A stretch of DNA of 64,000 bases. It comes from Escherichia coli O127:H6 str. E2348/69. GTDB taxonomy: Bacteria; Pseudomonadota; Gammaproteobacteria; Enterobacterales; Enterobacteriaceae. The translations under genes were made by a program, and so were the position numbers. The notes under the pieces were generated by a model, which was given only the letters and a program-made list of their open reading frames with translations, did no database searches and had not been told where the DNA came from. Shown in pieces: positions 16,863 through 45,860 of the stretch. The stretch is taken from the NCBI RefSeq assembly GCF_000026545.1, contig NC_011601.1; one strand, written 5' to 3'. Position 1 is the first letter of the stretch, and each line of letters opens with the position of its first letter.

Positions 16863-19800
16863 ATGTTGTACGATAAATCCCTTGAGAGGGATAACTGTGG
16901 TTTCGGCCTGATCGCCCACATAGAAGGCGAACCTAGCCACAAGGTAGTGCGTACTGCAATACACGCACTGGCCCGCATGCAGCACCGTGGCGCGATTCTC
17001 GCCGATGGTAAAACCGGTGACGGTTGCGGCTTGCTGTTACAAAAACCGGATCGTTTTTTTCGCATCGTTGCGCAGGAGCGCGGCTGGCGTTTAGCAAAAA
17101 ACTACGCCGTCGGGATGCTCTTCCTGAATAAAGATCCTGAACTCGCCGCTGCCGCACGCCGCATCGTTGAAGAAGAGCTGCAACGCGAAACGTTGTCGAT
17201 TGTGGGCTGGCGTGATGTCCCCACTAACGAAGGCGTGCTGGGTGAAATCGCCCTCTCCTCTCTGCCACGCATTGAGCAAATTTTTGTGAACGCCCCGGCA
17301 GGCTGGCGTCCGCGCGATATGGAGCGCCGTCTGTTTATCGCCCGCCGCCGCATTGAAAAGCGTCTCGAAGCCGACAAAGACTTCTACGTCTGTAGCCTGT
17401 CGAATCTGGTCAATATTTATAAAGGTCTGTGTATGCCGGCGGATCTGCCGCGCTTCTACCTGGACCTCGCTGACCTGCGTCTGGAATCGGCCATCTGCCT
17501 GTTTCACCAGCGCTTTTCCACTAACACCGTACCGCGCTGGCCGCTAGCGCAGCCGTTCCGCTACCTCGCGCATAACGGTGAAATCAACACCATCACCGGT
17601 AACCGCCAATGGGCGCGTGCGCGTACCTATAAATTCCAGACACCGCTGATCCCTGACCTGCACGACGCCGCGCCGTTCGTCAACGAAACCGGCTCTGACT
17701 CCAGTTCGATGGATAACATGCTGGAACTCCTGCTGGCAGGCGGGATGGATATCATCCGTGCCATGCGTCTGTTAGTGCCACCCGCCTGGCAGAACAACCC
17801 GGATATGGACCCGGAACTGCGTGCCTTCTTTGACTTTAACTCCATGCATATGGAGCCGTGGGATGGTCCGGCAGGGATCGTGATGTCCGATGGCCGTTTC
17901 GCCGCCTGTAACCTCGACCGTAACGGTCTGCGTCCGGCGCGCTACGTCATCACCAAAGATAAGCTCATTACCTGCGCCTCTGAAGTCGGTATCTGGGATT
18001 ATCAGCCTGACGAAGTGGTCGAAAAAGGCCGCGTGGGGCCAGGCGAACTGATGGTTATCGACACCCGCAGTGGGCGTATTCTGCACTCGGCAGAAACCGA
18101 TGACGATCTGAAAAGCCGCCACCCTTATAAAGAGTGGATGGAGAAAAACGTCCGCCGTCTGGTACCGTTTGAAGATCTGCCCGATGAAGAAGTGGGTAGC
18201 CGCGAACTGGACGACGACACGCTTGCCAGCTACCAGAAACAATTTAACTACAGCGCGGAAGAGCTGGATTCGGTGATCCGCGTACTGGGTGAAAACGGTC
18301 AGGAAGCGGTCGGTTCGATGGGCGACGACACCCCATTCGCCGTGCTCTCCAGCCAGCCGCGCATTATTTACGACTACTTCCGCCAGCAGTTTGCTCAGGT
18401 AACCAACCCGCCAATCGACCCGCTGCGCGAAGCGCATGTTATGTCGCTCGCCACCAGCATTGGCCGCGAAATGAACGTCTTCTGCGAAGCTGAAGGCCAG
18501 GCGCACCGTTTAAGCTTTAAATCGCCGATTCTGCTCTATTCCGATTTCAAACAGCTCACGACGATGAAAGAGGATCACTACCGCGCAGATACGCTGGATA
18601 TCACCTTTGACGTCACTAAAACCACGCTCGAAGCGACGGTCAAAGAGCTGTGCGACAAAGCCGAAAAAATGGTACGTAGCGGCACCGTGCTGCTGGTGCT
18701 CTCCGACCGGAATATCGCGAAAGATCGCCTGCCGGTTCCGGCTCCGATGGCGGTTGGCGCGATCCAGACCCGTCTGGTCGATCAAAGCCTGCGTTGCGAT
18801 GCCAACATCATCGTCGAAACCGCCAGCGCCCGTGATCCGCACCACTTCGCCGTGTTGCTGGGTTTCGGCGCGACGGCTATTTATCCGTACCTTGCCTATG
18901 AAACGCTGGGCCGTCTGGTAGACACCCACGCGATTGCCAAAGATTATCGTACCGTGATGCTCAACTATCGTAACGGCATCAACAAAGGCTTGTACAAAAT
19001 CATGTCCAAAATGGGCATCTCCACCATCGCCTCTTACCGCTGCTCGAAACTGTTTGAAGCGGTCGGTCTGCACGATGATGTCGTGGGCCTGTGCTTCCAG
19101 GGGGCGGTTAGCCGCATTGGGGGGGCTAGCTTTGAAGACTTCCAGCAGGATCTGCTGAATCTGTCGAAACGAGCCTGGCTGGCGCGTAAGCCCATCAGCC
19201 AGGGCGGCCAGCTGAAATACGTGCACGGCGGCGAATACCACGCCTACAACCCGGACGTGGTGCGCACGCTGCAACAGGCGGTACAGAGCGGCGAGTATAG
19301 CGACTATCAGGAATACGCGAAGCTGGTTAATGAGCGTCCGGCAACCACGCTACGCGATCTGCTGGCAATTACGCCGGGTGAAAACGCGGTCAACATTGCT
19401 GATGTTGAACCGGCAAGCGAACTGTTTAAACGCTTCGATACCGCCGCGATGTCTATCGGCGCGTTAAGCCCGGAAGCCCACGAGGCGCTGGCGGAAGCGA
19501 TGAACAGCATCGGCGGTAACTCAAACTCCGGCGAAGGCGGTGAAGACCCGGCGCGCTATGGCACTAACAAAGTGTCGCGCATCAAGCAGGTGGCGTCCGG
19601 TCGCTTTGGGGTTACTCCGGCGTATCTGGTCAATGCCGACGTCATTCAGATAAAAGTCGCCCAGGGCGCGAAGCCGGGTGAAGGTGGTCAGTTACCGGGT
19701 GATAAAGTCACTCCTTACATTGCCAAACTGCGCTATTCGGTGCCGGGCGTGACGCTGATCTCCCCGCCGCCGCACCACGATATCTACTCTATTGAGGATT

Positions 19801-21323
19801 TAGCGCAGCTGATTTTCGACCTCAAGCAGGTCAATCCAAAAGCGATGATCTCCGTGAAGCTGGTTTCCGAACCGGGCGTAGGCACCATCGCGACTGGCGT
19901 GGCAAAAGCTTATGCCGATTTAATCACCATCGCAGGCTATGACGGCGGCACCGGCGCAAGTCCGCTTTCATCGGTGAAATACGCAGGCTGTCCGTGGGAG
20001 CTGGGGCTTGTTGAAACCCAACAGGCGCTGGTTGCCAACGGCTTGCGTCACAAGATCCGTTTGCAGGTCGATGGCGGCCTGAAAACGGGTGTCGATATCA
20101 TCAAAGCAGCGATTCTTGGCGCGGAAAGTTTTGGCTTCGGCACTGGCCCGATGGTAGCGCTTGGCTGTAAATATCTGCGAATTTGCCACCTGAACAACTG
20201 CGCCACGGGTGTAGCAACTCAGGATGACAAACTGCGTAAGAATCACTATCACGGCCTGCCGTTCAAAGTGACTAATTACTTTGAGTTTATCGCCCGTGAA
20301 ACCCGCGAGCTGATGGCACAGCTGGGGGTAACGCGTCTGGTGGATCTGATTGGTCGCACCGACCTGCTGAAAGAGCTGGACGGTTTCACCGCCAAACAGC
20401 AGAAACTGGCACTGTCGAAGCTGCTGGAGACTGCCGAGCCGCATCCTGGTAAAGCGCTCTACTGCACCGAAAACAACCCGCCGTTTGATAACGGCCTGCT
20501 GAACGCGCAGTTGCTGCAACAGGCAAAACCGTTTGTCGATGAACGCCAGAGCAAAACCTTCTGGTTCGATATCCGCAACACCGACCGTTCTGTCGGCGCG
20601 TCGCTTTCAGGCTATATCGCCCAGACGCACGGCGATCAGGGGCTGGCAGCCGATCCTATCAAAGCGTACTTCAACGGCACCGCAGGCCAGAGCTTCGGCG
20701 TGTGGAACGCGGGCGGCGTGGAACTGTACCTGACCGGTGATGCCAACGACTATGTCGGTAAAGGCATGGCGGGCGGCTTAATCGCCATTCGTCCTCCGGT
20801 TGGTTCCGCCTTCCGCAGCCATGAAGCGAGCATTATCGGCAACACCTGCCTGTATGGCGCGACCGGTGGTCGTCTGTATGCCGCAGGCCGCACGGGTGAA
20901 CGTTTCGGCGTGCGTAACTCCGGTGCTATCACCGTGGTAGAAGGCATTGGCGACAACGGCTGTGAATATATGACGGGTGGTATCGTCTGTATTCTGGGTA
21001 AAACCGGCGTTAACTTCGGCGCGGGCATGACTGGCGGCTTCGCTTACGTTCTCGATGAAAGCGGCGATTTCCGCAAACGCGTTAATCCGGAGCTGGTCGA
21101 GGTCTTAAGCGTTGACGATCTGGCGATCCATGAAGAGCATCTGCGTGGTCTTATCACCGAGCATGTTCAGCATACCGGTTCCCAGCGTGGTGAAGAGATT
21201 CTGGCGAACTGGTCAACCTTCGCCACTAAATTTGCGCTGGTTAAACCGAAGTCCAGTGATGTAAAAGCACTGCTGGGCCACCGTAGTCGTAGCGCAGCAG
21301 AGTTGCGCGTGCAGGCGCAGTAA
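16863..21323 (+). CDS. gltB: GltB, glutamate synthase (NADPH) large subunit
   Basis: ORF 16755..21323; start at ATG 16863 (MLYDKSLERDNCGFGLIAHIEG, amidotransferase Cys after propeptide), 1486 aa; upstream in-frame ATGs at 16755/16770 are alternative starts. Confidence 0.95.
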   Translation: MLYDKSLERDNCGFGLIAHIEGEPSHKVVRTAIHALARMQHRGAILADGKTGDGCGLLLQKPDRFFRIVAQERGWRLAKNYAVGMLFLNKDPELAAAARRIVEEELQRETLSIVGWRDVPTNEGVLGEIALSSLPRIEQIFVNAPAGWRPRDMERRLFIARRRIEKRLEADKDFYVCSLSNLVNIYKGLCMPADLPRFYLDLADLRLESAICLFHQRFSTNTVPRWPLAQPFRYLAHNGEINTITGNRQWARARTYKFQTPLIPDLHDAAPFVNETGSDSSSMDNMLELLLAGGMDIIRAMRLLVPPAWQNNPDMDPELRAFFDFNSMHMEPWDGPAGIVMSDGRFAACNLDRNGLRPARYVITKDKLITCASEVGIWDYQPDEVVEKGRVGPGELMVIDTRSGRILHSAETDDDLKSRHPYKEWMEKNVRRLVPFEDLPDEEVGSRELDDDTLASYQKQFNYSAEELDSVIRVLGENGQEAVGSMGDDTPFAVLSSQPRIIYDYFRQQFAQVTNPPIDPLREAHVMSLATSIGREMNVFCEAEGQAHRLSFKSPILLYSDFKQLTTMKEDHYRADTLDITFDVTKTTLEATVKELCDKAEKMVRSGTVLLVLSDRNIAKDRLPVPAPMAVGAIQTRLVDQSLRCDANIIVETASARDPHHFAVLLGFGATAIYPYLAYETLGRLVDTHAIAKDYRTVMLNYRNGINKGLYKIMSKMGISTIASYRCSKLFEAVGLHDDVVGLCFQGAVSRIGGASFEDFQQDLLNLSKRAWLARKPISQGGQLKYVHGGEYHAYNPDVVRTLQQAVQSGEYSDYQEYAKLVNERPATTLRDLLAITPGENAVNIADVEPASELFKRFDTAAMSIGALSPEAHEALAEAMNSIGGNSNSGEGGEDPARYGTNKVSRIKQVASGRFGVTPAYLVNADVIQIKVAQGAKPGEGGQLPGDKVTPYIAKLRYSVPGVTLISPPPHHDIYSIEDLAQLIFDLKQVNPKAMISVKLVSEPGVGTIATGVAKAYADLITIAGYDGGTGASPLSSVKYAGCPWELGLVETQQALVANGLRHKIRLQVDGGLKTGVDIIKAAILGAESFGFGTGPMVALGCKYLRICHLNNCATGVATQDDKLRKNHYHGLPFKVTNYFEFIARETRELMAQLGVTRLVDLIGRTDLLKELDGFTAKQQKLALSKLLETAEPHPGKALYCTENNPPFDNGLLNAQLLQQAKPFVDERQSKTFWFDIRNTDRSVGASLSGYIAQTHGDQGLAADPIKAYFNGTAGQSFGVWNAGGVELYLTGDANDYVGKGMAGGLIAIRPPVGSAFRSHEASIIGNTCLYGATGGRLYAAGRTGERFGVRNSGAITVVEGIGDNGCEYMTGGIVCILGKTGVNFGAGMTGGFAYVLDESGDFRKRVNPELVEVLSVDDLAIHEEHLRGLITEHVQHTGSQRGEEILANWSTFATKFALVKPKSSDVKALLGHRSRSAAELRVQAQ

Positions 21324-22754
<1,431 letters not shown>

Positions 22755-22767
22755 GCGAGGTAACAAT

Positions 22768-22796
22768 AAATTCGCCAGACAGTGTCTGGCGAATTT
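22768..22796. terminator. Bidirectional hairpin shared by convergent gltD and yhcH
   Basis: Inverted repeat AAATTCGCCAGAC-AGT-GTCTGGCGAATTT directly after gltD stop and before yhcH stop. Confidence 0.7.
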
Positions 22797-22821
22797 ATAA
22801 AACGAGCGATCCAACTAAATT

Positions 22822-24154
<1,333 letters not shown>

Positions 24155-24158
<4 letters not shown>

Positions 24159-24844
24159 AGCACCGCCTTTTTCATCACTGTGTTGTACCACTGACAAATG
24201 TGTTCAAGACGCGTAATGGCAGAACCGACCGTCACCGCCCACGCGCCGTGGCGCATCGCATCCGCCGCCTGAGCAGGCGTGTTGTAACGCCCTTCGGCAA
24301 TCACCCGGCATCCGGCGTCACTCAACGTTTTCACCAACGCCAGATCCGGCTCTTCTGGCGTTTCAGGCGTGGTATAGCCAGAAAGCGTAGTGCCAATAAT
24401 TTCGGCTCCCAGCTTTTGGCATGCCAGGCCGTCTTCCGGCGTTGAGCAGTCGGTCATCGCCAGTAAACCGTGATGGTGAATACGTGCCAGCAGCGTTTCA
24501 ACTGGCACCGGACGCGGTCGGTCGGTGCCGTCAATCGCGATAATGTCCGCGCCCGCCTGCGCCAGCGCATCAACATCTTCAATATAGGCCGTGATGCGTA
24601 CCGGAGAATCCTCCAGATCGCGCTTCACAATCCCGATAATCGGCACGCTCACCACCGCACGCGTGGCTTGCAGATTTGCCACACCTTCAATACGAATGGC
24701 GACCGCGCCCGCCTGCTCTGCCGCTAATGCCATGGCAGCGACGATTTCGGGTTTATCGAGCGGGCTGTCCGGAACCGGTTGGCAGGAGACAATCAGGCCA
24801 CCGTTAGCAGCGATTTTTTGATCCAGTTGTGCAAGTAACGACAT
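24155..24844 (-). CDS. nanE: NanE, N-acetylmannosamine-6-phosphate 2-epimerase
   Basis: ORF 24155..24886; start at ATG 24842-24844 ([23 protein letters not shown]), 229 aa. Confidence 0.93.
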
Positions 24845-24891
24845 ACATCTTCCCTTAGCGAAAGGCCCGGTACAGAGACCGGGCAACAGGA

Positions 24892-26382
24892 TTAACTTTT
24901 GGTTTTGACTAAATCGTTTTTGGCGCTGCCAAACGGCACGGCACCGCTAAATGGTTTGCCGTCGATAGCGTCATGAGTACGCAATGCTTCCGGGCGCAGC
25001 CAACGCTGAACACGAGAAGGCATATCCAGACCAATCAGCAGGATCACCACAAATGTCAGACTGAACGAGAGCGATGCCAGCGCAGTACCCAGATCCAGAC
25101 GTTGAGCGATCAACGCGCCGATGATTGGGGCCAGTGCACCGCCCAATGCGCCAACGTTGTAGGTAAAGCCCAGGCCCGCTGCACGCTGGTCGGTATCGAA
25201 ATAACCGCCAATCAGTTTCGGTAAGATCCCAGCGATCCCTTGTCCAAGCATTTGCTGGAAGAACAGTAACAGACCGAGCACCCAGACGTTTGCGCCGCCA
25301 ATCGCAAATACCGGAATAATCAGCAGCTGCGAGGCCAGCAGACTACAAACGTACGCTTTGCGGGTTCCCAGCCAGTCACCGAGGAAGCCACCGACGCAGC
25401 ACCCCACCGCCGCGCCAAAGCCACTAAAGAACAGCACATTGGCGACAGTATGCGGGTCATAAGCCAGATCGGTTTTCAGATACGTTGGCAGCAGCGCCTG
25501 AATCGGCCATGAGTAGAGGAAAGCAAACAACACGACCACCATCAGCATTACGCCCGTTGGCCAGCGTTTGCCCGTACTCTGCACCATAAAGCTGATAAAG
25601 ATTGCGGCGCATAACAGCCCAAGAACAGCGACGATCGCGGCATTTTGCAGGTTACCGGCGAAGCAGAACCACAGCGCAGTAGCCGCCGCCAGTGTCATTA
25701 CGATATTGGCAATGCGATGTTCACCACGGTAGAGAATATCCACCATTGTGCGTACCGGTGCTTTACCCCCGTGTTTCTCTTTCCAGTCTTCCGCTTCCGG
25801 GATGTTTTTACGCAGCCAGAGAGCAAAGATGATTGGCAAAATGCCGATAAAGAACAGCGCACGCCAGCCCCAGACCGGAACCACCAGACTATAGACCTGA
25901 GCGGCAACGACGGCCCCCACTGAGAAGCCTGAAATCAGAAAACCACTGGCTTTGTTACGCAGATGCTTTGGCCAGCTTTCAATGACATAGGTGGCGCTGG
26001 AACCGTATTCACCCGCCATCCCCATGCCAATGACCAGACGAGCGATAAACATGGTGATGTAGCCTGGCGCAAAGCCGCAGGCCAGCGTCCCGGCCGAGAA
26101 GAGAACGATGCTGGTGACCATTGCCAGACGACGCCCGTAGCGGTCACCCATAGCGCCGAGCATCAGGCCGCCGAACCAGCGAGAGATAAAGGCTGCGGAG
26201 ATCAGACTTGCCGCCTGCACCGTCGTCAGCCCGAATTCACCCTGTACTTCGGTGAGTACCAGGGCGATTAAAACGAAATCAAAACCGTCAAGCAGATATC
26301 CCAACCAGGCAGCGGAAAATGCCCGCCATTGTGCGCGGTTAAGATGGCGATACCACGGGATATTCTGGGTTGTAGTACTCAT
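24892..26382 (-). CDS. nanT: NanT, sialic acid MFS transporter
   Basis: ORF 24892..26412; start at ATG 26380-26382 ([15 protein letters not shown]), 496 aa, multi-TM. Confidence 0.93.
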
Positions 26383-26490
26383 TGTGAGTCTCCCGCGGTG
26401 GGCGATGCCCACACGCTTTGGTATGAAAATTGTAGGGTACAGATGCGTTTATTTCCCCTCACCCGGTAGGGGCGAGCGAGGAGAAACAAC

Positions 26491-27384
26491 TCACCCGCGC
26501 TCTTGCATCAACTGCTGGGCCAGCGCCTTCAGTTCTGGCAGATATTTTTCATCTACCGGACCAAACGGTTTGCGGCACAGCGGCACAGAAACGACATCCA
26601 TATAATGCAGGACAGTTTTCAGGCCGCGGAATACACCAGTTTTTATCAGTAAATCAATGACTTTATTGCACTCAGTTTGCAGTTTCTGCGCGGTCTGGAT
26701 ATCGCCTTCTTTCAGCGCCTTCACGATCCCCTGATAACGCCAGCCCATGATGTTGTAAGTGCTGCCGATACCGCCGTCTGCGCCCGCCAGAAGACCAGAG
26801 GCGAAAATTTCGTCGTAACCGTTATAGAGCACCAGATCAGGATGTTCACGACGGATCTGCTCCATCTGATAGAGATCGCCAGAGGTCTGTTTCAGCGCAC
26901 CTACACCAGGCAGCGTAACCAGGGTGTTGATCTGATCCAGGGTCAGTTTTACCCCGCTCAGGGCTGGAATGTTGTACACCACCATCGGCAACCCATCCGC
27001 CGAATCAATAATTGCCCGATAGTGATCGCAGTGTTCTTCAAAGCTGAAAGGATAGTAGAACGGCGTGACGGCGGAGACGGCATCGAAGCCATAACGTTTA
27101 GCCGATGCCGCAAGTTGTTGGCTTTCGGCGGTGCTGACGCAACCGACGTGGGCGATGAGTTTAATCTTACCTTTCGCCTCTTCAGCGACGATTTCCAGTA
27201 CCTGTTCACGCTCTGAAAGGCTCTGTACAAAGGCTTCGCCTGTCGAACCCCCCACGTACAAACCGTCGATGCCCTGCTGAATATTGAACTGAACCAGGCG
27301 GCGCAGACTCGCTTTATCCAGTGCTTGTTGTTGGTCAAAAGGAGTCAGGAGTGCAGCCATTACGCCACGTAAATTCGTTGCCAT
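26491..27384 (-). CDS. nanA: NanA, N-acetylneuraminate lyase
   Basis: 297 aa, DHDPS/NAL family ([16 protein letters not shown]). Confidence 0.96.
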
Positions 27385-27419
27385 AAATACCTCTGAAGTG
27401 ATGCTTGTCTGATAAACGA

Positions 27420-27442
27420 TATACCTTTATACCTGTTATACC
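27420..27442 (-). promoter_or_regulatory. NanR operator: three tandem GGTATA repeats upstream of nanA
   Basis: Plus strand TATACC TT TATACC TGT TATACC = minus strand GGTATA ACA GGTATA AA GGTATA, 36-58 bp upstream of the nanA ATG. Confidence 0.75.
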
Positions 27443-27505
27443 AGATCAATTAAGCAACACCCCATACAGAAAGCTTATAATGCGATCTGCTTCACTAAAG
27501 TGGCA

Positions 27506-28297
27506 TTATTTCTTTTTGTTGGTGGTCTGACCGAAGGCGTGCCAGGTAGCAGAGACGCTGTTGAGATGCGATTGCAACGCGCGATCGGCTTCGTCAGGAT
27601 CATGACGGCGGATCGCGTCAACGATCGCAATATGCTGTTGATAGCTAACGTTGTTATGCTCATGCAGAGCCTGATCAGCCACGGTTGGACGTGCGGCGAT
27701 TAGCCAGTCGAGCAGGGCAACGTGGATCGCCATGAAGATTGGGTTACCAGGGATCTCCGCCAGAACGCGGTGGAAATCAACGTCTGAGCGAATGAATGCC
27801 GCGTTGTTATCCAGCGACTGACTGTTGATTTCCAGTGCTTTTGCCAGCAAATCGATTTGCTCATTGGTGGCGTGTTCAGCCGCATAGCGCACCAGGCTGG
27901 ATTCAAAGAACAGACGTAATTGTTCGAAATGGGCAATCCCACCAGGATGAGAAAGGAAATCTTTCGCCATGCCGGAAAGCTCGCCGATGATGGTGTCCGC
28001 AGAAGGACGTGAGACGCGAGCGCGTTCGCCGTTGTTTATCTGCACCAGACCTTTGCGTTTTAACGCTGCCAGCGCTTCGCGCACCGAAGGACGCCCGACG
28101 TTAAAGAACGCCATCAGTTCGCGTTCAGACGGTAATTGTTCACCTTCGCCAAATTCACGACGGCGGATCATCTGTTCCAGCTCTTCTTCCACCATTTCGG
28201 AGAGTTTTTTACGCGCCAGCGGGCGGCTACGCAAGTTGCGACCAATTGCAGGTGAAGAATCTTCGGTTTGCGAATCAAATGCGTTCATAGGACTCAT
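27506..28297 (-). CDS. nanR: NanR, GntR/FadR-family repressor of sialic acid catabolism
   Basis: 263 aa, N-terminal HTH, C-terminal FCD domain. Confidence 0.95.
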
Positions 28298-28375
28298 TCA
28301 GGAAAATGCGTTAGCGAATAATAACGACGCTATCGTAGCACAGTATCAAAGTCAGGCGAAAAGATGACAGATAGC

Positions 28376-28404: not shown

Positions 28405-28902
28405 TTACTTCACAACGCGTAATGCTGGTCGACCACCGCGTGGTGGCTGCGGTGGTTCATCGTCAGGATGAGTGTCATCATCGTGATCTGGCTTGTCGCC
28501 ATCGATAACCGACATAACGGTTTCGTTGTCTGCCGATGCCTCTTCATCATTCATGATGCTGGCATCTTCATCGTAGGCAGCTTCAGGCTCAAACATCGTG
28601 CCTGCGCCATTTTCACGGGCGTAGATAGCCAGCACGGCAGCCAGCGGCACAGAAACCTGACGCGGAATGCCACCAAAGCGCGCGTTAAAGCGCACCTCAT
28701 CATTCGCCAGTTCCAGATTGCCGACAGCACGCGGCGCAATGTTGAGTACGATTTGCCCGTCACGCGCATATTCCATAGGAACCTGCACGCCAGGGAGCGT
28801 CACATCCACCACCAGGTGCGGCGTGAGCTGGTTATCCAGCAACCACTCATAGAATGCACGCAGCAGATAGGGACGACGTGGTGTTAGCTGTGACAAATCC
28901 AT
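28405..28902 (-). CDS. sspB: SspB, ClpXP adaptor / stringent starvation protein B
   Basis: 165 aa, acidic linker and C-terminal ClpX-binding tail RGGRPALRVVK. Confidence 0.96.
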   Translation of the reverse strand: MDLSQLTPRRPYLLRAFYEWLLDNQLTPHLVVDVTLPGVQVPMEYARDGQIVLNIAPRAVGNLELANDEVRFNARFGGIPRQVSVPLAAVLAIYARENGAGTMFEPEAAYDEDASIMNDEEASADNETVMSVIDGDKPDHDDDTHPDDEPPQPPRGGRPALRVVK

Positions 28903-42629: not shown

Positions 42630-42637
42630 AACCCCAG
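42630..42637. repeat. Left copy of 8-bp flanking direct repeat AACCCCAG (target-site duplication)
   Basis: Identical 8-mer immediately abuts both IS termini (42630-42637 and 44188-44195). Confidence 0.75.
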
Positions 42638-42656
42638 CTGTCTCTTATACACAAAT
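42638..42656 (+). repeat. IS left terminal inverted repeat
   Basis: CTGTCTCTTATACACAAAT; overlaps a perfect 10-bp stem ACAAATCCCC / GGGGATTTGT at 42651-42674. Confidence 0.85.
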
Positions 42657-42802
42657 CCCCACCCGGGGATTTGTGATGTCTGTCAGTCTGCTTTAGGGGG
42701 ACTCTTTCCATCCGGTAGTTTCCTTCCTCCCCGGCAGCGATTTTTTGAACTTTTTCCTCACCCGTTGATCTTCTCTTATATTTCATTTTCTTCGGGTCTG
42801 TT

Positions 42803-44176
42803 ATGGTACTTTCTGATTGTTATTCATGGGCTAACGAGCAGTTTGGACATGCCCGTCTCGGTGATCCGCGTCGTACACGACGCCTTGTGTCACTGGCCTC
42901 TTCTCTCGCTCAGCATGCAGGTCTTTCTATTGTGAAATCATCCCAGTCCACTGCTCAGGTTGAAGGTGCGTACCGCCTGATACGTAACCCGTCTGTGTCC
43001 CCGCAAGCCATTGCCGAAGCCGGATTTACCGCCACTGTAAGGGCATGTGAGGCTCATCCGCTGCTCCTCGCGCTGGAAGACACCACCACCATTAACTTCA
43101 GTCACAGTACGGCATCTGATGACCTGGGGAATACCACCACTAACCCGAAGACGCGCGGGCTGCTGGCTCACTCTGTCCTGATGTACGCCCCCGACAGCGC
43201 CCTGCCAGTCGGTCTTATCGAACAGCAGCGCTGGAGTCGTGCCACGGACACCTACGGTGTTAAGCACCAGCGAAAAGAACGTCCCTATGAAGAAAAAGAA
43301 AGTTACCGCTGGCAGCAGGCTTCGGAGCGCATGGCCGAACGGCTGGGGGAGATACAGAAACGGGTAATCACTGTCTGTGACCGGGAAGCGGATATCTGGC
43401 ATTACCTGCATTATAAAGTCAGCCACGGGCAGCGCTTCGTGGTGCGTGCAGCACAGAATCGCCGGCTGGAAGAAGCACCCGGCAAGCTCTTCGAACTGCC
43501 GGAAGTCCTGGCAACCGCGGGAAGCCACACGCTGAATGTGATGCAAAAAGGCGGGCGGGCAGCCCGCCAGGCCCGGATGTTCATCAGTTACAGCGAAGTC
43601 AGCATAAAAAATCCCGACAACAGCGGCCAGGCGCTCCCGCTCACGTATGTCTGTTGCCGGGAGCAGGCAGAGGACGGCGCCTGCTGGCATCTGCTGACGT
43701 CAGAAAAAGTGGCGAGTGCCGCCGATGCGCGACGTATCGTCAGCCATTACGAGCGACGCTGGCTGATAGAGGAATACCACAAGGCGTGGAAAAGTGGTGG
43801 TACATGTGTGGAATCGCTGCGAATGCAGACCCGGGATAACCTCGAGCGCATGGTGGTTATCAAGGCGTTTATCGCGGTGCGGGTGCTGGGCCTGCGGCAG
43901 GGCGGTATCAGTGAAGAAACACAAAATGACAGCTGTGAGAAAATACTGACGCCGACAGAGTGGAAACTGCTGTGGGTTAAGCTGGAAGGAAAACCGCTTC
44001 CGTCACAGATGCCGACACTGAAATGGGCCTGTCTGAAACTGGCGAAACTGGGGCGATGGCATGACAGCAAACGCACCGGTCGCCCCGGTTGGGTAGTCAT
44101 GTGGGATGGCTGGTTCAGACTTCAGGATATGGTTGAGGGTTACCTGGTGATGAAGTCTCTTGATCAGGAGATCTGA
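42803..44176 (+). CDS. IS50-group DDE transposase (Tn5 Tnp homologue)
   Basis: 457 aa; blocks shared with Tn5 Tnp: GDPRRTRRLV, EGAYRLIRNP, LALEDTT (D93), VCDREADIWHYL (D193), YERRWLIEEYHKAWK (Y316-R319-E323-K330 YREK signature), DSKRTGRPGW; stop codon lies inside the right IR. Confidence 0.92.
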   Translation: MVLSDCYSWANEQFGHARLGDPRRTRRLVSLASSLAQHAGLSIVKSSQSTAQVEGAYRLIRNPSVSPQAIAEAGFTATVRACEAHPLLLALEDTTTINFSHSTASDDLGNTTTNPKTRGLLAHSVLMYAPDSALPVGLIEQQRWSRATDTYGVKHQRKERPYEEKESYRWQQASERMAERLGEIQKRVITVCDREADIWHYLHYKVSHGQRFVVRAAQNRRLEEAPGKLFELPEVLATAGSHTLNVMQKGGRAARQARMFISYSEVSIKNPDNSGQALPLTYVCCREQAEDGACWHLLTSEKVASAADARRIVSHYERRWLIEEYHKAWKSGGTCVESLRMQTRDNLERMVVIKAFIAVRVLGLRQGGISEETQNDSCEKILTPTEWKLLWVKLEGKPLPSQMPTLKWACLKLAKLGRWHDSKRTGRPGWVVMWDGWFRLQDMVEGYLVMKSLDQEI

Positions 44177-44187
44177 TCAAGAGACAG
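44169..44187 (-). repeat. IS right terminal inverted repeat
   Basis: Plus strand AGATCTGATCAAGAGACAG = reverse complement of CTGTCTCTTGATCAGATCT. Confidence 0.85.
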
Positions 44188-44195
44188 AACCCCAG
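44188..44195. repeat. Right copy of 8-bp flanking direct repeat AACCCCAG
   Basis: Identical to 42630-42637. Confidence 0.75.
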
Positions 44196-45720: not shown

Positions 45721-45752
45721 TTAGTTACTGCAGTAGAGGATTTTTTACGGCT

Positions 45753-45786
45753 GCCGGATGCGGCGTGAACGCCCTGTCCGGCCTAC
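45753..45786. repeat. REP (repetitive extragenic palindrome) element
   Basis: GCCGGATGCGGCGTGAACGCCCTGTCCGGCCTAC in the tldD-yhdP intergenic region. Confidence 0.85.
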
Positions 45787-45860
45787 GGTTATGTTCTGGC
45801 TCGTTGGCCTTTGGCAACGATTATCATATGAGATTGGGGCAATTACGCGCCCTCGTCAAA

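What the first reader, a model, noticed from the sequence alone, without database searches (positions are those of the whole stretch)
22752..22824. gltD abuts the nan operon directly: the K-12 block gltF-yhcA-yhcD-yhcE-yhcF-yhcG is absent
Only 67 bp separate the gltD stop from the convergent yhcH stop, and the gap is filled by a single bidirectional hairpin. From memory of K-12 gene order, the regulatory gene gltF and a chaperone-usher fimbrial cluster (yhcA, yhcD, yhcE, yhcF) plus yhcG lie between these genes there. This lineage therefore appears to have a gltBD operon without gltF and without that fimbrial cluster at this locus. The junction is clean, with no IS scar or pseudogene fragments.
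Basis: partly seen in the sequence, partly recalled or inferred. Interest (0 to 1): 0.4.

Follow-up and report, generated by a model that had tools for sequence, protein, structure and literature searches.

The report
Empty gltD–nanQ junction in EPEC E2348/69
In this E. coli strain (E2348/69) the glutamate-synthase and sialic-acid operons meet tail to tail with only a hairpin between them, because the fimbrial genes that K-12 carries here are a K-12-lineage addition; this is ordinary strain variation, but the hairpin is a copy of a conserved palindrome otherwise found inside yhcG nuclease genes.

Summary
The window is E. coli O127:H6 E2348/69 (100% match). gltD ends at 22754 and the convergent nanQ (yhcH) ends at 22822. 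The 67-bp gap holds one perfect 15-bp-stem hairpin (22766-22798). K-12 has 8,348 bp here (gltF-yhcA-yhcD-yhcE::IS5-yhcF-yhcG).

None of these genes lies elsewhere in three E2348/69-type assemblies.

The locus has three states among 5,426 complete E. coli genomes:
- empty: 945 genomes
- yhcG only: about 3,130
- K-12-like fimbrial block: 1,229, almost all ≥99% identical, low GC

No other Escherichia, Citrobacter, Kluyvera or Pseudocitrobacter genome examined has the fimbrial block after gltD. It is therefore an insertion in the K-12 lineage, not a deletion here. The sporadic, phylogroup-A distribution of Yhc fimbriae is already published, so the finding itself is known and of low interest.

One thing may be new. 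The hairpin is a stand-alone copy of an AATT-N8-N3-N8-AATT palindrome that sits inside YhcG/DUF1016 nuclease genes across phyla and co-varies to stay palindromic. In K-12, Term-seq puts the gltD mRNA 3' end 3 nt after the orthologous hairpin.

The parts
16863..21323 (+). gltB, glutamate synthase large subunit
   Evidence: RefSeq annotation of E2348/69 mapped to the window; 99.7% aa identity to K-12 GltB
21336..22754 (+). gltD, glutamate synthase small subunit; stop TAA at 22752-22754
   Evidence: 99.4% aa identity to K-12 GltD
22755..22821 (.). 67-bp convergent intergenic spacer: the 'empty' allele of the gltD-nanQ indel site
   Evidence: The same junction is present in 945 of 5,426 complete E. 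coli genomes and in Escherichia sp. MOD1-EC7003
22766..22798 (.). Perfect palindrome/hairpin ATAAATTCGCCAGAC-AGT-GTCTGGCGAATTTAT. Likely 3'-end-forming or stabilising stem-loop for gltBD (+), and possibly for nanATEKQ (-). It is a stand-alone copy of the YhcG-family palindrome.
   Evidence: Fold. The 28-nt core AAATTCGCCAGACAGTGTCTGGCGAATT is identical to the first internal palindrome of O157-type yhcG. Covariation is shown. In K-12 the orthologous hairpin sits 3 nt before the mapped gltD 3' end (PMC7815308 supplementary file 1)
22795..22812 (.). Breakpoint interval: the 18 window bases that align to neither K-12 flank. K-12 carries 8,348 bp here (3360657-3369004).
   Evidence: megablast of the window against MG1655
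22822..23286 (-). nanQ (yhcH), N-acetylneuraminate anomerase; last gene of the nan operon
   Evidence: Pfam DUF386/YhcH family, E 6e-41
23283..28297 (-). nanK, nanE, nanT, nanA and nanR (sialic acid catabolism operon and its regulator)
   Evidence: annotation; tblastn with K-12 proteins

Best explanation
The 67-bp gap is the 'empty' haplotype of a small indel hotspot between two convergent core operons, gltBD and nanATEKQ.

Shown:
- E. coli carries three main states here: nothing; a 1.2-1.3-kb yhcG module (a PD-(D/E)XK nuclease that matches the candidate phage-defence family PDC-S02); or, in the K-12 lineage, the low-GC beta-class chaperone-usher cluster gltF-yhcADEF plus yhcG.
- The fimbrial cluster is a lineage-restricted insertion. 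E2348/69 never had it at this site as far as the outgroups show, and it does not have it elsewhere.
- The empty haplotype is old. A different Escherichia species shares it, with about 7% divergence in gltD.

Inferred:
- The single hairpin defines or stabilises the 3' ends of the converging transcripts. In K-12 the orthologous hairpin lies 3 nt upstream of the mapped gltD 3' end. There is no U-tract there, so it probably acts as a barrier to exonucleases or as a non-canonical terminator.
- The hairpin is homologous to the palindrome that all YhcG-family genes carry inside their coding region.
- K-12's 8.3-kb insert sits immediately 3' of this palindrome and ends with a second copy. The palindrome is therefore the constant right-hand boundary of the variable segment and the likely site of the recombination that built the K-12 allele.
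For: Identity and observation:
- The window is E2348/69 at 100% identity; anatomy.

Allele counts:
- 945 genomes have the direct junction.
- 4,075 genomes have an insert of at most about 1.5 kb. Subtracting the 945 leaves about 3,130 with yhcG only; examples are O157, IAI39, 2016C-3878 and DG341-1.
- 1,229 genomes carry the K-12 gltF-yhcD DNA. 1,223 of them are ≥99% identical, and all copies are chromosomal.

Polarity of the fimbrial block:
- Of the 22 GTDB species loci found with the gltD C-terminus, those with readable downstream sequence show nanQ directly (10), yhcG (8, followed by nanQ wherever the locus extends that far) or sspB (2). None shows gltF-yhcADEF.
- The block has 40-48% GC against 54-59% in the flanks.
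- The literature restricts yhc to phylogroup A and calls it 'sporadic'.

Not elsewhere in the genome:
-.

Age of the empty allele:
- MOD1-EC7003 has the same left flank (GTGGTAACAAT, against GAGGTAACAAT in the window), the same palindrome and the same right flank, but is only 93% identical in gltD.

Hairpin function:
- The primary gltD 3' end in MG1655 is at 3360660 (+), 3 nt after the stem.

Hairpin ancestry:
- The 28-nt core is identical to the yhcG internal copy.
- The right flank TTTATAAAACGA matches the flank of the post-yhcG copy, TTTAAAACGA.
- Genera without yhcG at this site have unrelated REP-like hairpins instead.
- In K-12 the insert is bracketed by two copies.
Against: - No 3'-end data exist for E2348/69 itself.
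- The consensus terminator scan finds no site.
- The + strand has no U-run after the stem.
- In K-12, nan-direction transcription appears to read through the nanQ-proximal copy into yhcG antisense, where a Rho-dependent region is mapped (supplementary file 2). The 'bidirectional' part is therefore unproven.
- The outgroup sample lacks E. fergusonii and Salmonella, because the pattern scan did not return them.
- Whether the empty state or the yhcG state is ancestral in Escherichia is unresolved. E. albertii, E. whittamii and most E. coli have yhcG.
- Similarity between the hairpin and yhcG is confined to the 28-nt palindrome, so convergence cannot be formally excluded.
Confidence: 0.85

Rival explanations
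1. Deletion in the E2348/69 (B2) lineage: the ancestor of E. coli had the full K-12 block gltF-yhcADEF-yhcG, and this lineage lost it cleanly.
For: K-12's block is flanked by two direct copies of the palindrome. Recombination between them would leave almost exactly the E2348/69 spacer: left flank GAGGTAACAAT, one palindrome, right flank TTTAAAACGA. E. albertii shows that palindrome-to-palindrome deletion does happen at this locus: its yhcG is truncated, with a hybrid palindrome whose arms are tgg/cag.
Against: No outgroup species has the fimbrial genes after gltD. The block is present in only 1,229 of 5,426 genomes, is ≥99% identical in 1,223 of them, and has low GC. The empty allele is shared with a species-level-distinct Escherichia (93% gltD identity, spacer about 85% by my count), so it predates the young K-12 block. 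Both arms of the E2348/69 palindrome are of the cgc/gcg type, not the cgc/cag hybrid that a crossover within the palindrome's core or loop between K-12 HP1 and HP2 would give.
Confidence: 0.05
2. Loss of yhcG only: the Escherichia ancestor had gltD-yhcG-nanQ, and the B2/E2348/69 haplotype is a secondary deletion of the yhcG module that left one palindrome as a scar.
For: yhcG with the same 185-bp upstream region directly after the gltD stop is present in E. albertii (remnant), E. whittamii, Escherichia sp. E1V33, two divergent 'E. coli' species representatives and Pseudocitrobacter vendiensis, and in more diverged form in Citrobacter amalonaticus. The palindrome is a hallmark of yhcG coding sequence family-wide. 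It is found in 'empty' sites only in genera that also have yhcG alleles; the Pseudocitrobacter MAG empty site keeps part of the yhcG upstream hairpin plus one palindrome.
Against: A single palindrome-to-palindrome deletion from the O157-type allele cannot produce the E2348/69 spacer. That allele has no palindrome upstream of codon ~104, and the 11-nt flank GAGGTAACAAT is absent from it. The empty allele is itself old. Many outgroup genera have gltD-nanQ adjacent without yhcG.
Confidence: 0.35
3. Assembly or rearrangement artefact: the genes exist in this genome but were moved or collapsed.
For: None found. The first-stage reader raised the possibility.
Against: Three independent O127:H6 assemblies (NZ_CP059840.2, NZ_LT827011.1, NZ_LT903847.1) have the identical junction and no second match to K-12 gltF-yhcA or the yhcG 3' half. 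945 genomes share the junction. The window is otherwise collinear with K-12.
Confidence: 0.01
4. The hairpin is just a generic intrinsic terminator. Its resemblance to the yhcG palindromes is coincidence or convergence.
For: Its position between two convergent stop codons is typical of shared terminators. A 3' end maps next to the K-12 ortholog. Similarity to yhcG does not extend beyond the palindrome itself.
Against: 28 of 28 nt are identical to the internal yhcG copy of O157-type alleles. It has the family architecture AATT-N8-N3-N8-AATT. The right flank is shared with the post-yhcG copy. Outgroup genera without yhcG use unrelated REP-like hairpins at this site. It lacks the U-tract of a canonical terminator.
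Confidence: 0.15

Closest known systems
Yhc (beta-class) chaperone-usher fimbrial locus of E. coli K-12 and its sporadic distribution (Wurpel et al. 2013, PMC3559732; Del Canto et al. 2017, PMC5216030)
   Same: It is the same chromosomal site. The published surveys already report Yhc as 'highly under-represented' or 'sporadic', found in K-12 strains and phylogroup-A ETEC, with gltF counted as a putative structural subunit. E2348/69 (B2) is in the 2013 survey (9 CU operons); the passages read do not give its per-strain Yhc status.
   Different: The window is the unoccupied state, so it contains no member of the family. Wurpel et al. had left open whether Yhc is an ancient remnant or a recent acquisition.
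Shared (bidirectional) stem-loop terminators and 3'-stabilising hairpins between convergent bacterial genes (general knowledge; E. coli Term-seq data in PMC7815308)
   Same: One GC-cored hairpin with A/T-rich symmetric flanks lies between two convergent stop codons. A primary 3' end is mapped 3 nt after the orthologous K-12 stem.
   Different: There is no U-run on the + strand, and the consensus scan did not call a terminator. No 3' end is recorded for the nan direction in K-12; instead there is a Rho-dependent region 400 nt further on.
Protein-coding palindromes: Rickettsia palindromic elements (Ogata et al. 2000, 2002; cited in PMC4316617)
   Same: Palindromic DNA is tolerated in frame inside ORFs, with copies also found in intergenic DNA.
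   Different: RPEs are 100-150-bp mobile elements inserted into unrelated genes of a single genus. Here a 27-bp palindrome sits at one homologous position of one gene family (YhcG/DUF1016) across phyla, with extra tandem in-frame copies in some alleles.
REP/BIME extragenic palindromes of enterobacteria
   Same: They are intergenic hairpins at operon 3' ends. Citrobacter species have true REP-like units at this very site.
   Different: The hairpin occurs once in the 64-kb window and by eye bears no resemblance to the REP-like units at this site in Citrobacter. Its relatives lie inside or next to yhcG, not dispersed in the loci examined.
Defence-gene hotspots between core genes (PADLOC candidate system PDC-S02 = YhcG family)
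   Same: A single candidate defence nuclease is variably present at a fixed site between conserved operons. Homologs occur on plasmids next to integrases or inside type I R-M operons.
   Different: PDC-S02 is only a candidate system. No defence phenotype was found in the literature searched. The window itself has no such gene.

Membership tests
Yhc beta-class chaperone-usher fimbrial operon | Usher (PF00577), PapD-like chaperone (PF00345) and DUF1120 subunits encoded together | tested here: not met
   The K-12 proteins have these domains. tblastn of GltF, YhcA, YhcD and YhcF against the window found nothing at E ≤ 1e-3. There is no megablast match elsewhere in the E2348/69 chromosome.
YhcG/DUF1016 PD-(D/E)XK nuclease gene (PADLOC PDC-S02) | ORF with DUF1016_N and YhcG_C domains | tested here: not met
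   No YhcG homolog was found in the window or elsewhere in E2348/69 at megablast level. K-12 and O157 YhcG match PF17761 + PF06250 and PDC-S02 (E down to 4e-136).
YhcG-family palindrome (defined here) | About 27-bp palindrome AATT-N8-N3-N8-AATT, arms complementary | tested here: met
   Window 22769-22795 is AATTCGCCAGAC-AGT-GTCTGGCGAATT with 12 of 12 pairs, identical to the internal copy of O157-type yhcG.
YhcG-family palindrome (defined here) | Located at the codons for the I-x-Q-T-x-S motif of a yhcG gene | tested here: not met
   The window copy is intergenic and solitary. It resembles the extra copies that lie after the yhcG stop and after gltD in K-12.
Canonical intrinsic (Rho-independent) terminator, bidirectional | GC-rich stem-loop | tested here: met
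   15-bp perfect stem with an 8-bp GC-rich core, dG -24.3 kcal/mol, z -4.6.
Canonical intrinsic (Rho-independent) terminator, bidirectional | U-tract of at least 5 in 8 immediately 3' of the stem on each strand | tested here: not met
   The consensus scan found 0 sites. After the GC core the + strand reads AAUUUAUAAAA and the - strand AAUUUAUUGUU.
Canonical intrinsic (Rho-independent) terminator, bidirectional | Transcript 3' ends mapped at the hairpin on both strands | tested here: inconclusive
   The K-12 ortholog has a primary gltD 3' end at +3 nt (PMC7815308 supplementary file 1). None is listed for the nan strand. No data exist for E2348/69.
IS or transposon excision scar | IS terminal inverted repeats, target-site duplication or a transposase remnant at the junction | tested here: not met
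   The 67-bp spacer contains only the palindrome and unique flanks. There is no ORF of 80 aa or more lying wholly within it. The whole spacer is shared with a distinct Escherichia species.
REP/BIME | Dispersed multi-copy family | tested here: not met
   One copy in the 64-kb window. No Rfam match reaches the threshold. A genome-wide copy number was not measured.

The most novel reading that the evidence does not exclude
The hairpin may be more than a terminator. It would be a stand-alone copy of an apparently undescribed DNA-level element: a ~27-bp palindrome (AATT-N8-N3-N8-AATT) embedded at one conserved position in the coding region of YhcG/DUF1016 nuclease genes from Proteobacteria, Cyanobacteria, Bacteroidota and many viral contigs. 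The element stays palindromic through compensatory changes. On this reading it is a functional site for this Holliday-junction-resolvase-like nuclease or for an associated recombinase (a cruciform or operator). Recombination at it would create the presence/absence polymorphism at gltD-nanQ, including K-12's 8.3-kb insertion and E. albertii's truncation. The existence and covariation of the palindrome family are shown here. Its function, and its causal role in the indels, are conjecture.
Probability: 0.3. Interest if true: 0.65.

Novelty: already known. Interest (0 to 1): 0.22.

Why it matters
The finding as stated matters little. It is a reminder that K-12 is atypical at this locus. 'gltBDF' is not a general operon: 77% of complete E. 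coli genomes have no gltF, and gltF is a fimbrial-type DUF1120 gene. The Yhc fimbrial cluster is a lineage-restricted, low-GC acquisition. That settles a small question left open in the 2013 fimbrial survey, namely whether Yhc is an ancient remnant or a recent gain.

The side observation could matter more. A nuclease family listed as a candidate phage-defence system carries a conserved, co-varying DNA palindrome inside its own gene. Copies of that palindrome mark the boundaries of indels at this site. This gives a concrete, testable handle on what YhcG proteins recognise.

Tried and rejected
- ER2796 was the first K-12 record fetched, but it is a deletion strain lacking gltBD. I replaced it with MG1655.
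- The consensus promoter/terminator scan of 22300-23300 found no terminator.
- Rfam on 22500-23100 gave only chance-level hits far below the gathering scores.
- The first chimeric query, meant to test for the block elsewhere in E2348/69, was badly designed. The K-12 part was longer than the anchor, so K-12 strains filled the table. I redid it with a shorter block.
- blastn of K-12's 560-bp gltD-gltF spacer against all fetched loci found no relative. A roughly 50-nt resemblance to the Pseudocitrobacter MAG spacer rests on my own reading only.
- I looked for a predicted intermediate allele (GAGGTAACAAT + palindrome + yhcG without fimbrial genes) in IAI39, 2016C-3878 and DG341-1. All three have the O157-type left junction.
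- A single-protein scan of viral contigs returned only one locus. An alignment-based scan returned 80.
- My first regex for locating the L(S/P)W(S/G)H motif mis-anchored many loci. I replaced it with a position-window test plus a control window.
- Goss et al. 2001 (gltF in K. aerogenes) could not be retrieved by PubMed id, so it is not used as evidence.
- An RNA-level explanation for the intragenic palindrome is disfavoured, because sense-strand G.T mismatches (22) do not outnumber A.C mismatches (24).

Full report
**1. What is in the sequence**

The window matches the chromosome of enteropathogenic E. coli O127:H6 strain E2348/69 (NZ_CP059840.2) at 100% identity.

- gltD occupies 21336..22754 on the + strand.
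- The convergent nanQ (formerly yhcH), the last gene of the nanATEKQ operon, occupies 22822..23286 on the - strand.
- One perfect hairpin fills its centre: arms 22766-22780 and 22784-22798 with loop AGT. It folds at -24.3 kcal/mol with z = -4.6.
- The consensus scan calls no intrinsic terminator there, because no run of T follows the stem.
- Rfam has nothing at the site.

**2. The K-12 comparison**

The window is collinear with MG1655 3337862-3410597 apart from four differences:

- At 22795-22812, K-12 has 8,348 extra bases.
- At 28300-28374, K-12 has 1,758 extra bases carrying dcuD.
- At 42635-44188, the window has an extra Tn5/IS4-type transposase gene.
- There is a roughly 210-bp difference in the tldD-yhdP spacer.

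tblastn with K-12 GltF, YhcA, YhcD, YhcF, YhcG and DcuD finds nothing in the window.

To test the rest of the genome I used a chimeric query: 3 kb of the window joined to reverse-complemented K-12 gltF-yhcA plus the 3' part of yhcG. It returns E2348/69 and two other O127:H6 assemblies with a single matching place each. The block is therefore not elsewhere at megablast sensitivity.

**3. Population picture**

Among 5,426 complete E. coli genomes:

- 945 have the direct gltD-nanQ junction.
- 4,075 have the two flanks within about 1.5 kb of each other. About 3,130 therefore carry only the 1.2-1.3-kb yhcG module, as O157:H7, IAI39, 2016C-3878 and DG341-1 do.
- 1,229 carry K-12's gltF-yhcD DNA. 1,223 of these are ≥99% identical, and all copies are chromosomal.

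K-12 is thus the minority state. Direct-junction genomes listed include 81009, H105, Z247 and SA186, which I recall to be ST131 (own knowledge, not tested here). E2348/69 itself is listed as phylogroup B2 (PMC3559732).

**4. Polarity**

I scanned one genome per GTDB species for the GltD C-terminus and obtained 22 loci. Their gene order was read by tblastn.

- gltD is followed directly by nanQ in three Kluyvera species, three Citrobacter species, a Pseudocitrobacter MAG, Enterobacter sp. kpr-6, two unnamed Enterobacteriaceae and Escherichia sp. MOD1-EC7003.
- yhcG lies immediately after gltD in E. albertii (a remnant), E. whittamii, Escherichia sp. E1V33, two divergent 'E. coli' species representatives, Citrobacter amalonaticus and Pseudocitrobacter vendiensis. 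nanQ follows wherever the stored locus extends far enough; the E1V33 and E. whittamii loci end within yhcG.
- gltD is followed by sspB, with the nan genes absent, in two species.
- None has gltF-yhcADEF.

The K-12 block also has 40-48% GC against 54-59% in gltBD and the nan genes. The fimbrial cluster is therefore an acquisition in the K-12 lineage. Published surveys agree: they find yhc only in phylogroup A and call it sporadic, and they left open whether it is a remnant or a gain.

GltF and YhcF are both DUF1120 proteins, YhcA is a PapD-like chaperone and YhcD is an usher. gltF thus belongs with the fimbrial genes rather than with gltBD.

For yhcG the polarity is unresolved. The yhcG allele, with a conserved 185-bp upstream region that starts right at the gltD stop, is shared across Escherichia species and with Pseudocitrobacter. 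But the empty allele is also old. MOD1-EC7003 has the same left flank, the same palindrome and the same right flank, while its gltD is only 93% identical to that of E2348/69.

**5. What the hairpin is**

K-12 has two related hairpins.

- One lies just after gltD: GAATTCGCCAGAC-TGT-GTCTGGCGAATC. Its left flank, GAGGTAACAAT, is the same as in E2348/69.
- The other lies just after yhcG: GAATTCTGCAGAC-AGT-GTCTGCAGAATC. Its right flank, TTTAAAACGA, is the same as in E2348/69.

The 8.3-kb K-12-specific segment therefore begins immediately 3' of one copy and ends with another.

The same palindrome also occurs one to three times, in frame and 39 bp apart, inside every enterobacterial yhcG examined. 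There it encodes I-x-Q-T-x-S-x-E/K-L/F. The E2348/69 copy is identical over 28 nt to the first internal copy of O157-type yhcG. The three base pairs next to the CAGAC/GTCTG core differ among copies by compensatory changes: cgc/gcg, ctg/cag, ctc/gag, tgg/cca, gtg/cac and ccg/cgg.

In E. albertii, yhcG is cut off after 122 codons at a hybrid palindrome. Its left arm comes from an internal copy and its right arm and flank come from the post-stop copy. Palindrome-to-palindrome deletion therefore does occur at this locus.

Genera that lack yhcG here have unrelated REP-like hairpins in the gltD-nanQ spacer.

**6. The palindrome is a family-wide feature of YhcG/DUF1016 genes**

Nine homologs were examined first. 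They come from plasmids of Citrobacter, Pseudomonas, Nostoc, Glaesserella, Parabacteroides, Aeromonas, Enterobacter and Legionella, plus one viral contig, at 31-60% amino-acid identity. Each has a palindrome or near-palindrome at the same codons, with different sequences in different homologs. The Nostoc copy was scored only with a 1-nt centre, and the viral-contig copy is 10 of 12 pairs.

I then tested 75 distinct loci drawn from 80 viral contigs, eight plasmid homologs and one earlier viral locus.

- 63 have at least 10 of 12 arm pairs in the motif window.
- Only 1 of 75 reaches that in an equal-sized control window 150 nt downstream.
- The consensus is AATT-N8-N3-N8-AATT, and all 12 pairs show changes on both sides.
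- The aligned copies were selected for being palindromic, so the percentage paired is not independent evidence. The control window and the diversity of pair types are.
- Sense-strand G.T mismatches (22) do not exceed A.C mismatches (24). This argues against selection on an mRNA hairpin and for a DNA-level cause: a cruciform, a symmetric protein site, or quasi-palindrome correction.

YhcG's nuclease domain was predicted to resemble archaeal Holliday-junction resolvases (PMC1189080). It matches the PADLOC candidate defence family PDC-S02. On plasmids it often follows a site-specific integrase gene or sits inside a type I R-M operon. 'DUF1016 family protein' is also enriched next to genes targeted by programmed inversions (PMC9881135). 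I found no paper in the held library that links DUF1016 with a palindrome.

**7. How the hairpin most likely works in E2348/69**

Published Term-seq data for MG1655 list a primary gltD 3' end at 3360660 (+), three nucleotides after the stem of the gltD-proximal copy (PMC7815308 supplementary file 1). This is experimental support, in the orthologous K-12 element, for a role in forming or protecting the gltBD 3' end. The end sequence ...GAAUCAAA has no U-tract. An exonuclease barrier or non-canonical termination is therefore more likely than a textbook intrinsic terminator; this is inference.

For the nan direction, K-12 has no listed 3' end at the nanQ-proximal copy. It does have a Rho-dependent region about 400 nt further on, antisense to yhcG (supplementary file 2). 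In E2348/69 the - strand has a better U-rich tail (AAUUUAUUGUU), but this is untested. 'Bidirectional' therefore remains a plausible inference.

**8. Verdict**

The gene-content difference is ordinary, already published in substance, and explained as an insertion in the K-12 lineage. Interest in the finding as stated is low.

The residual novelty lies in the hairpin. It belongs to a conserved, co-varying palindrome family that characterises YhcG nuclease genes, and copies of it bracket the indels at this site. Whether it is a functional DNA site and the cause of those indels remains open.

Noticed in passing
L003 16137-16240 (K-12 yhcG), L004 3448; plasmid loci L033-L040; viral loci L041-L120: YhcG/DUF1016 nuclease genes carry an in-frame ~27-bp palindrome (AATT-N8-N3-N8-AATT) at the codons for I-x-Q-T-x-S, just before the L(S/P)W(S/G)H motif. 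63 of 75 distinct loci have at least 10 of 12 pairs, against 1 of 75 in a control window. All 12 pairs co-vary. There is no G.T over A.C bias. Copy number is 1-3 (39-bp in-frame repeats) among E. coli alleles. No description was found in the held literature.
   Followed up: partly
window 28300-28374 (between nanR 27506..28297 and sspB 28405..28902): dcuD, which lies between nanR and sspB in K-12 (1,758 bp), is also absent here. The direct nanR-sspB junction is present in 1,039 of 5,426 complete E. coli genomes, a number similar to the 945 with the empty gltD-nanQ junction. dcuD is present in several Citrobacter species and in Escherichia sp. MOD1-EC7003 but absent in Kluyvera.
   Followed up: partly
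window 42635-44188 (ORF 42803..44176, +): A 1.55-kb segment absent from K-12 lies between aaeR and tldD. It encodes a 457-aa Tn5/IS4-type transposase (Tnp_DNA_bind and DDE_Tnp_1 above the Pfam cutoffs; Dimer_Tnp_Tn5 at 24.1 bits, just below its 26.7 cutoff).
   Followed up: partly
L005 3114-3500 (Escherichia albertii NBRC 107761): yhcG is truncated after about 122 codons at a hybrid palindrome. The left arm comes from an internal copy; the right arm and flank come from the post-stop copy. This is a natural example of palindrome-to-palindrome deletion that removed the nuclease domain.
   Followed up: yes
L003 8661 (MG1655 3360660, +) and MG1655 3368581 (-): Published Term-seq lists a primary gltD 3' end 3 nt after the gltD-proximal palindrome, upstream of gltF. 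This argues that gltBD and gltF are largely separate transcripts. A Rho-dependent region antisense to yhcG suggests nan-operon read-through past the nanQ-proximal palindrome.
   Followed up: partly
L033, L034, L039 (plasmids of Citrobacter, P. putida, E. hormaechei); L038 (Aeromonas plasmid): YhcG homologs on plasmids start within, or a few bases after, the end of a site-specific integrase gene (overlapping reading frames), or lie between hsdM and hsdS of a type I restriction-modification operon.
   Followed up: no
L009 3267-3467 (Pseudocitrobacter MAG) compared with L019 795-980 (P. vendiensis): The 'empty' gltD-nanQ spacer of the MAG keeps part of the yhcG upstream hairpin plus one tgg/cca-type palindrome, followed by REP-like units. 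It therefore looks like a deletion derivative of a yhcG allele. The roughly 50 nt after its palindrome resemble the start of K-12's gltD-gltF spacer, by my own reading only.
   Followed up: partly
NZ_CP062908.1 524777-533140 and NZ_CP062863.1 (hits H136, H137): In two pig isolates, the gltF-yhcA and yhcG portions matched on the same strand as the reverse-complemented query part, with two IS1B copies annotated. This suggests an IS1-mediated inversion within the K-12-type block.
   Followed up: no
window 45747-45810 against MG1655 3392133-3392344: K-12 has about 210 extra bases in the tldD-yhdP intergenic region. The cause was not examined.
   Followed up: no
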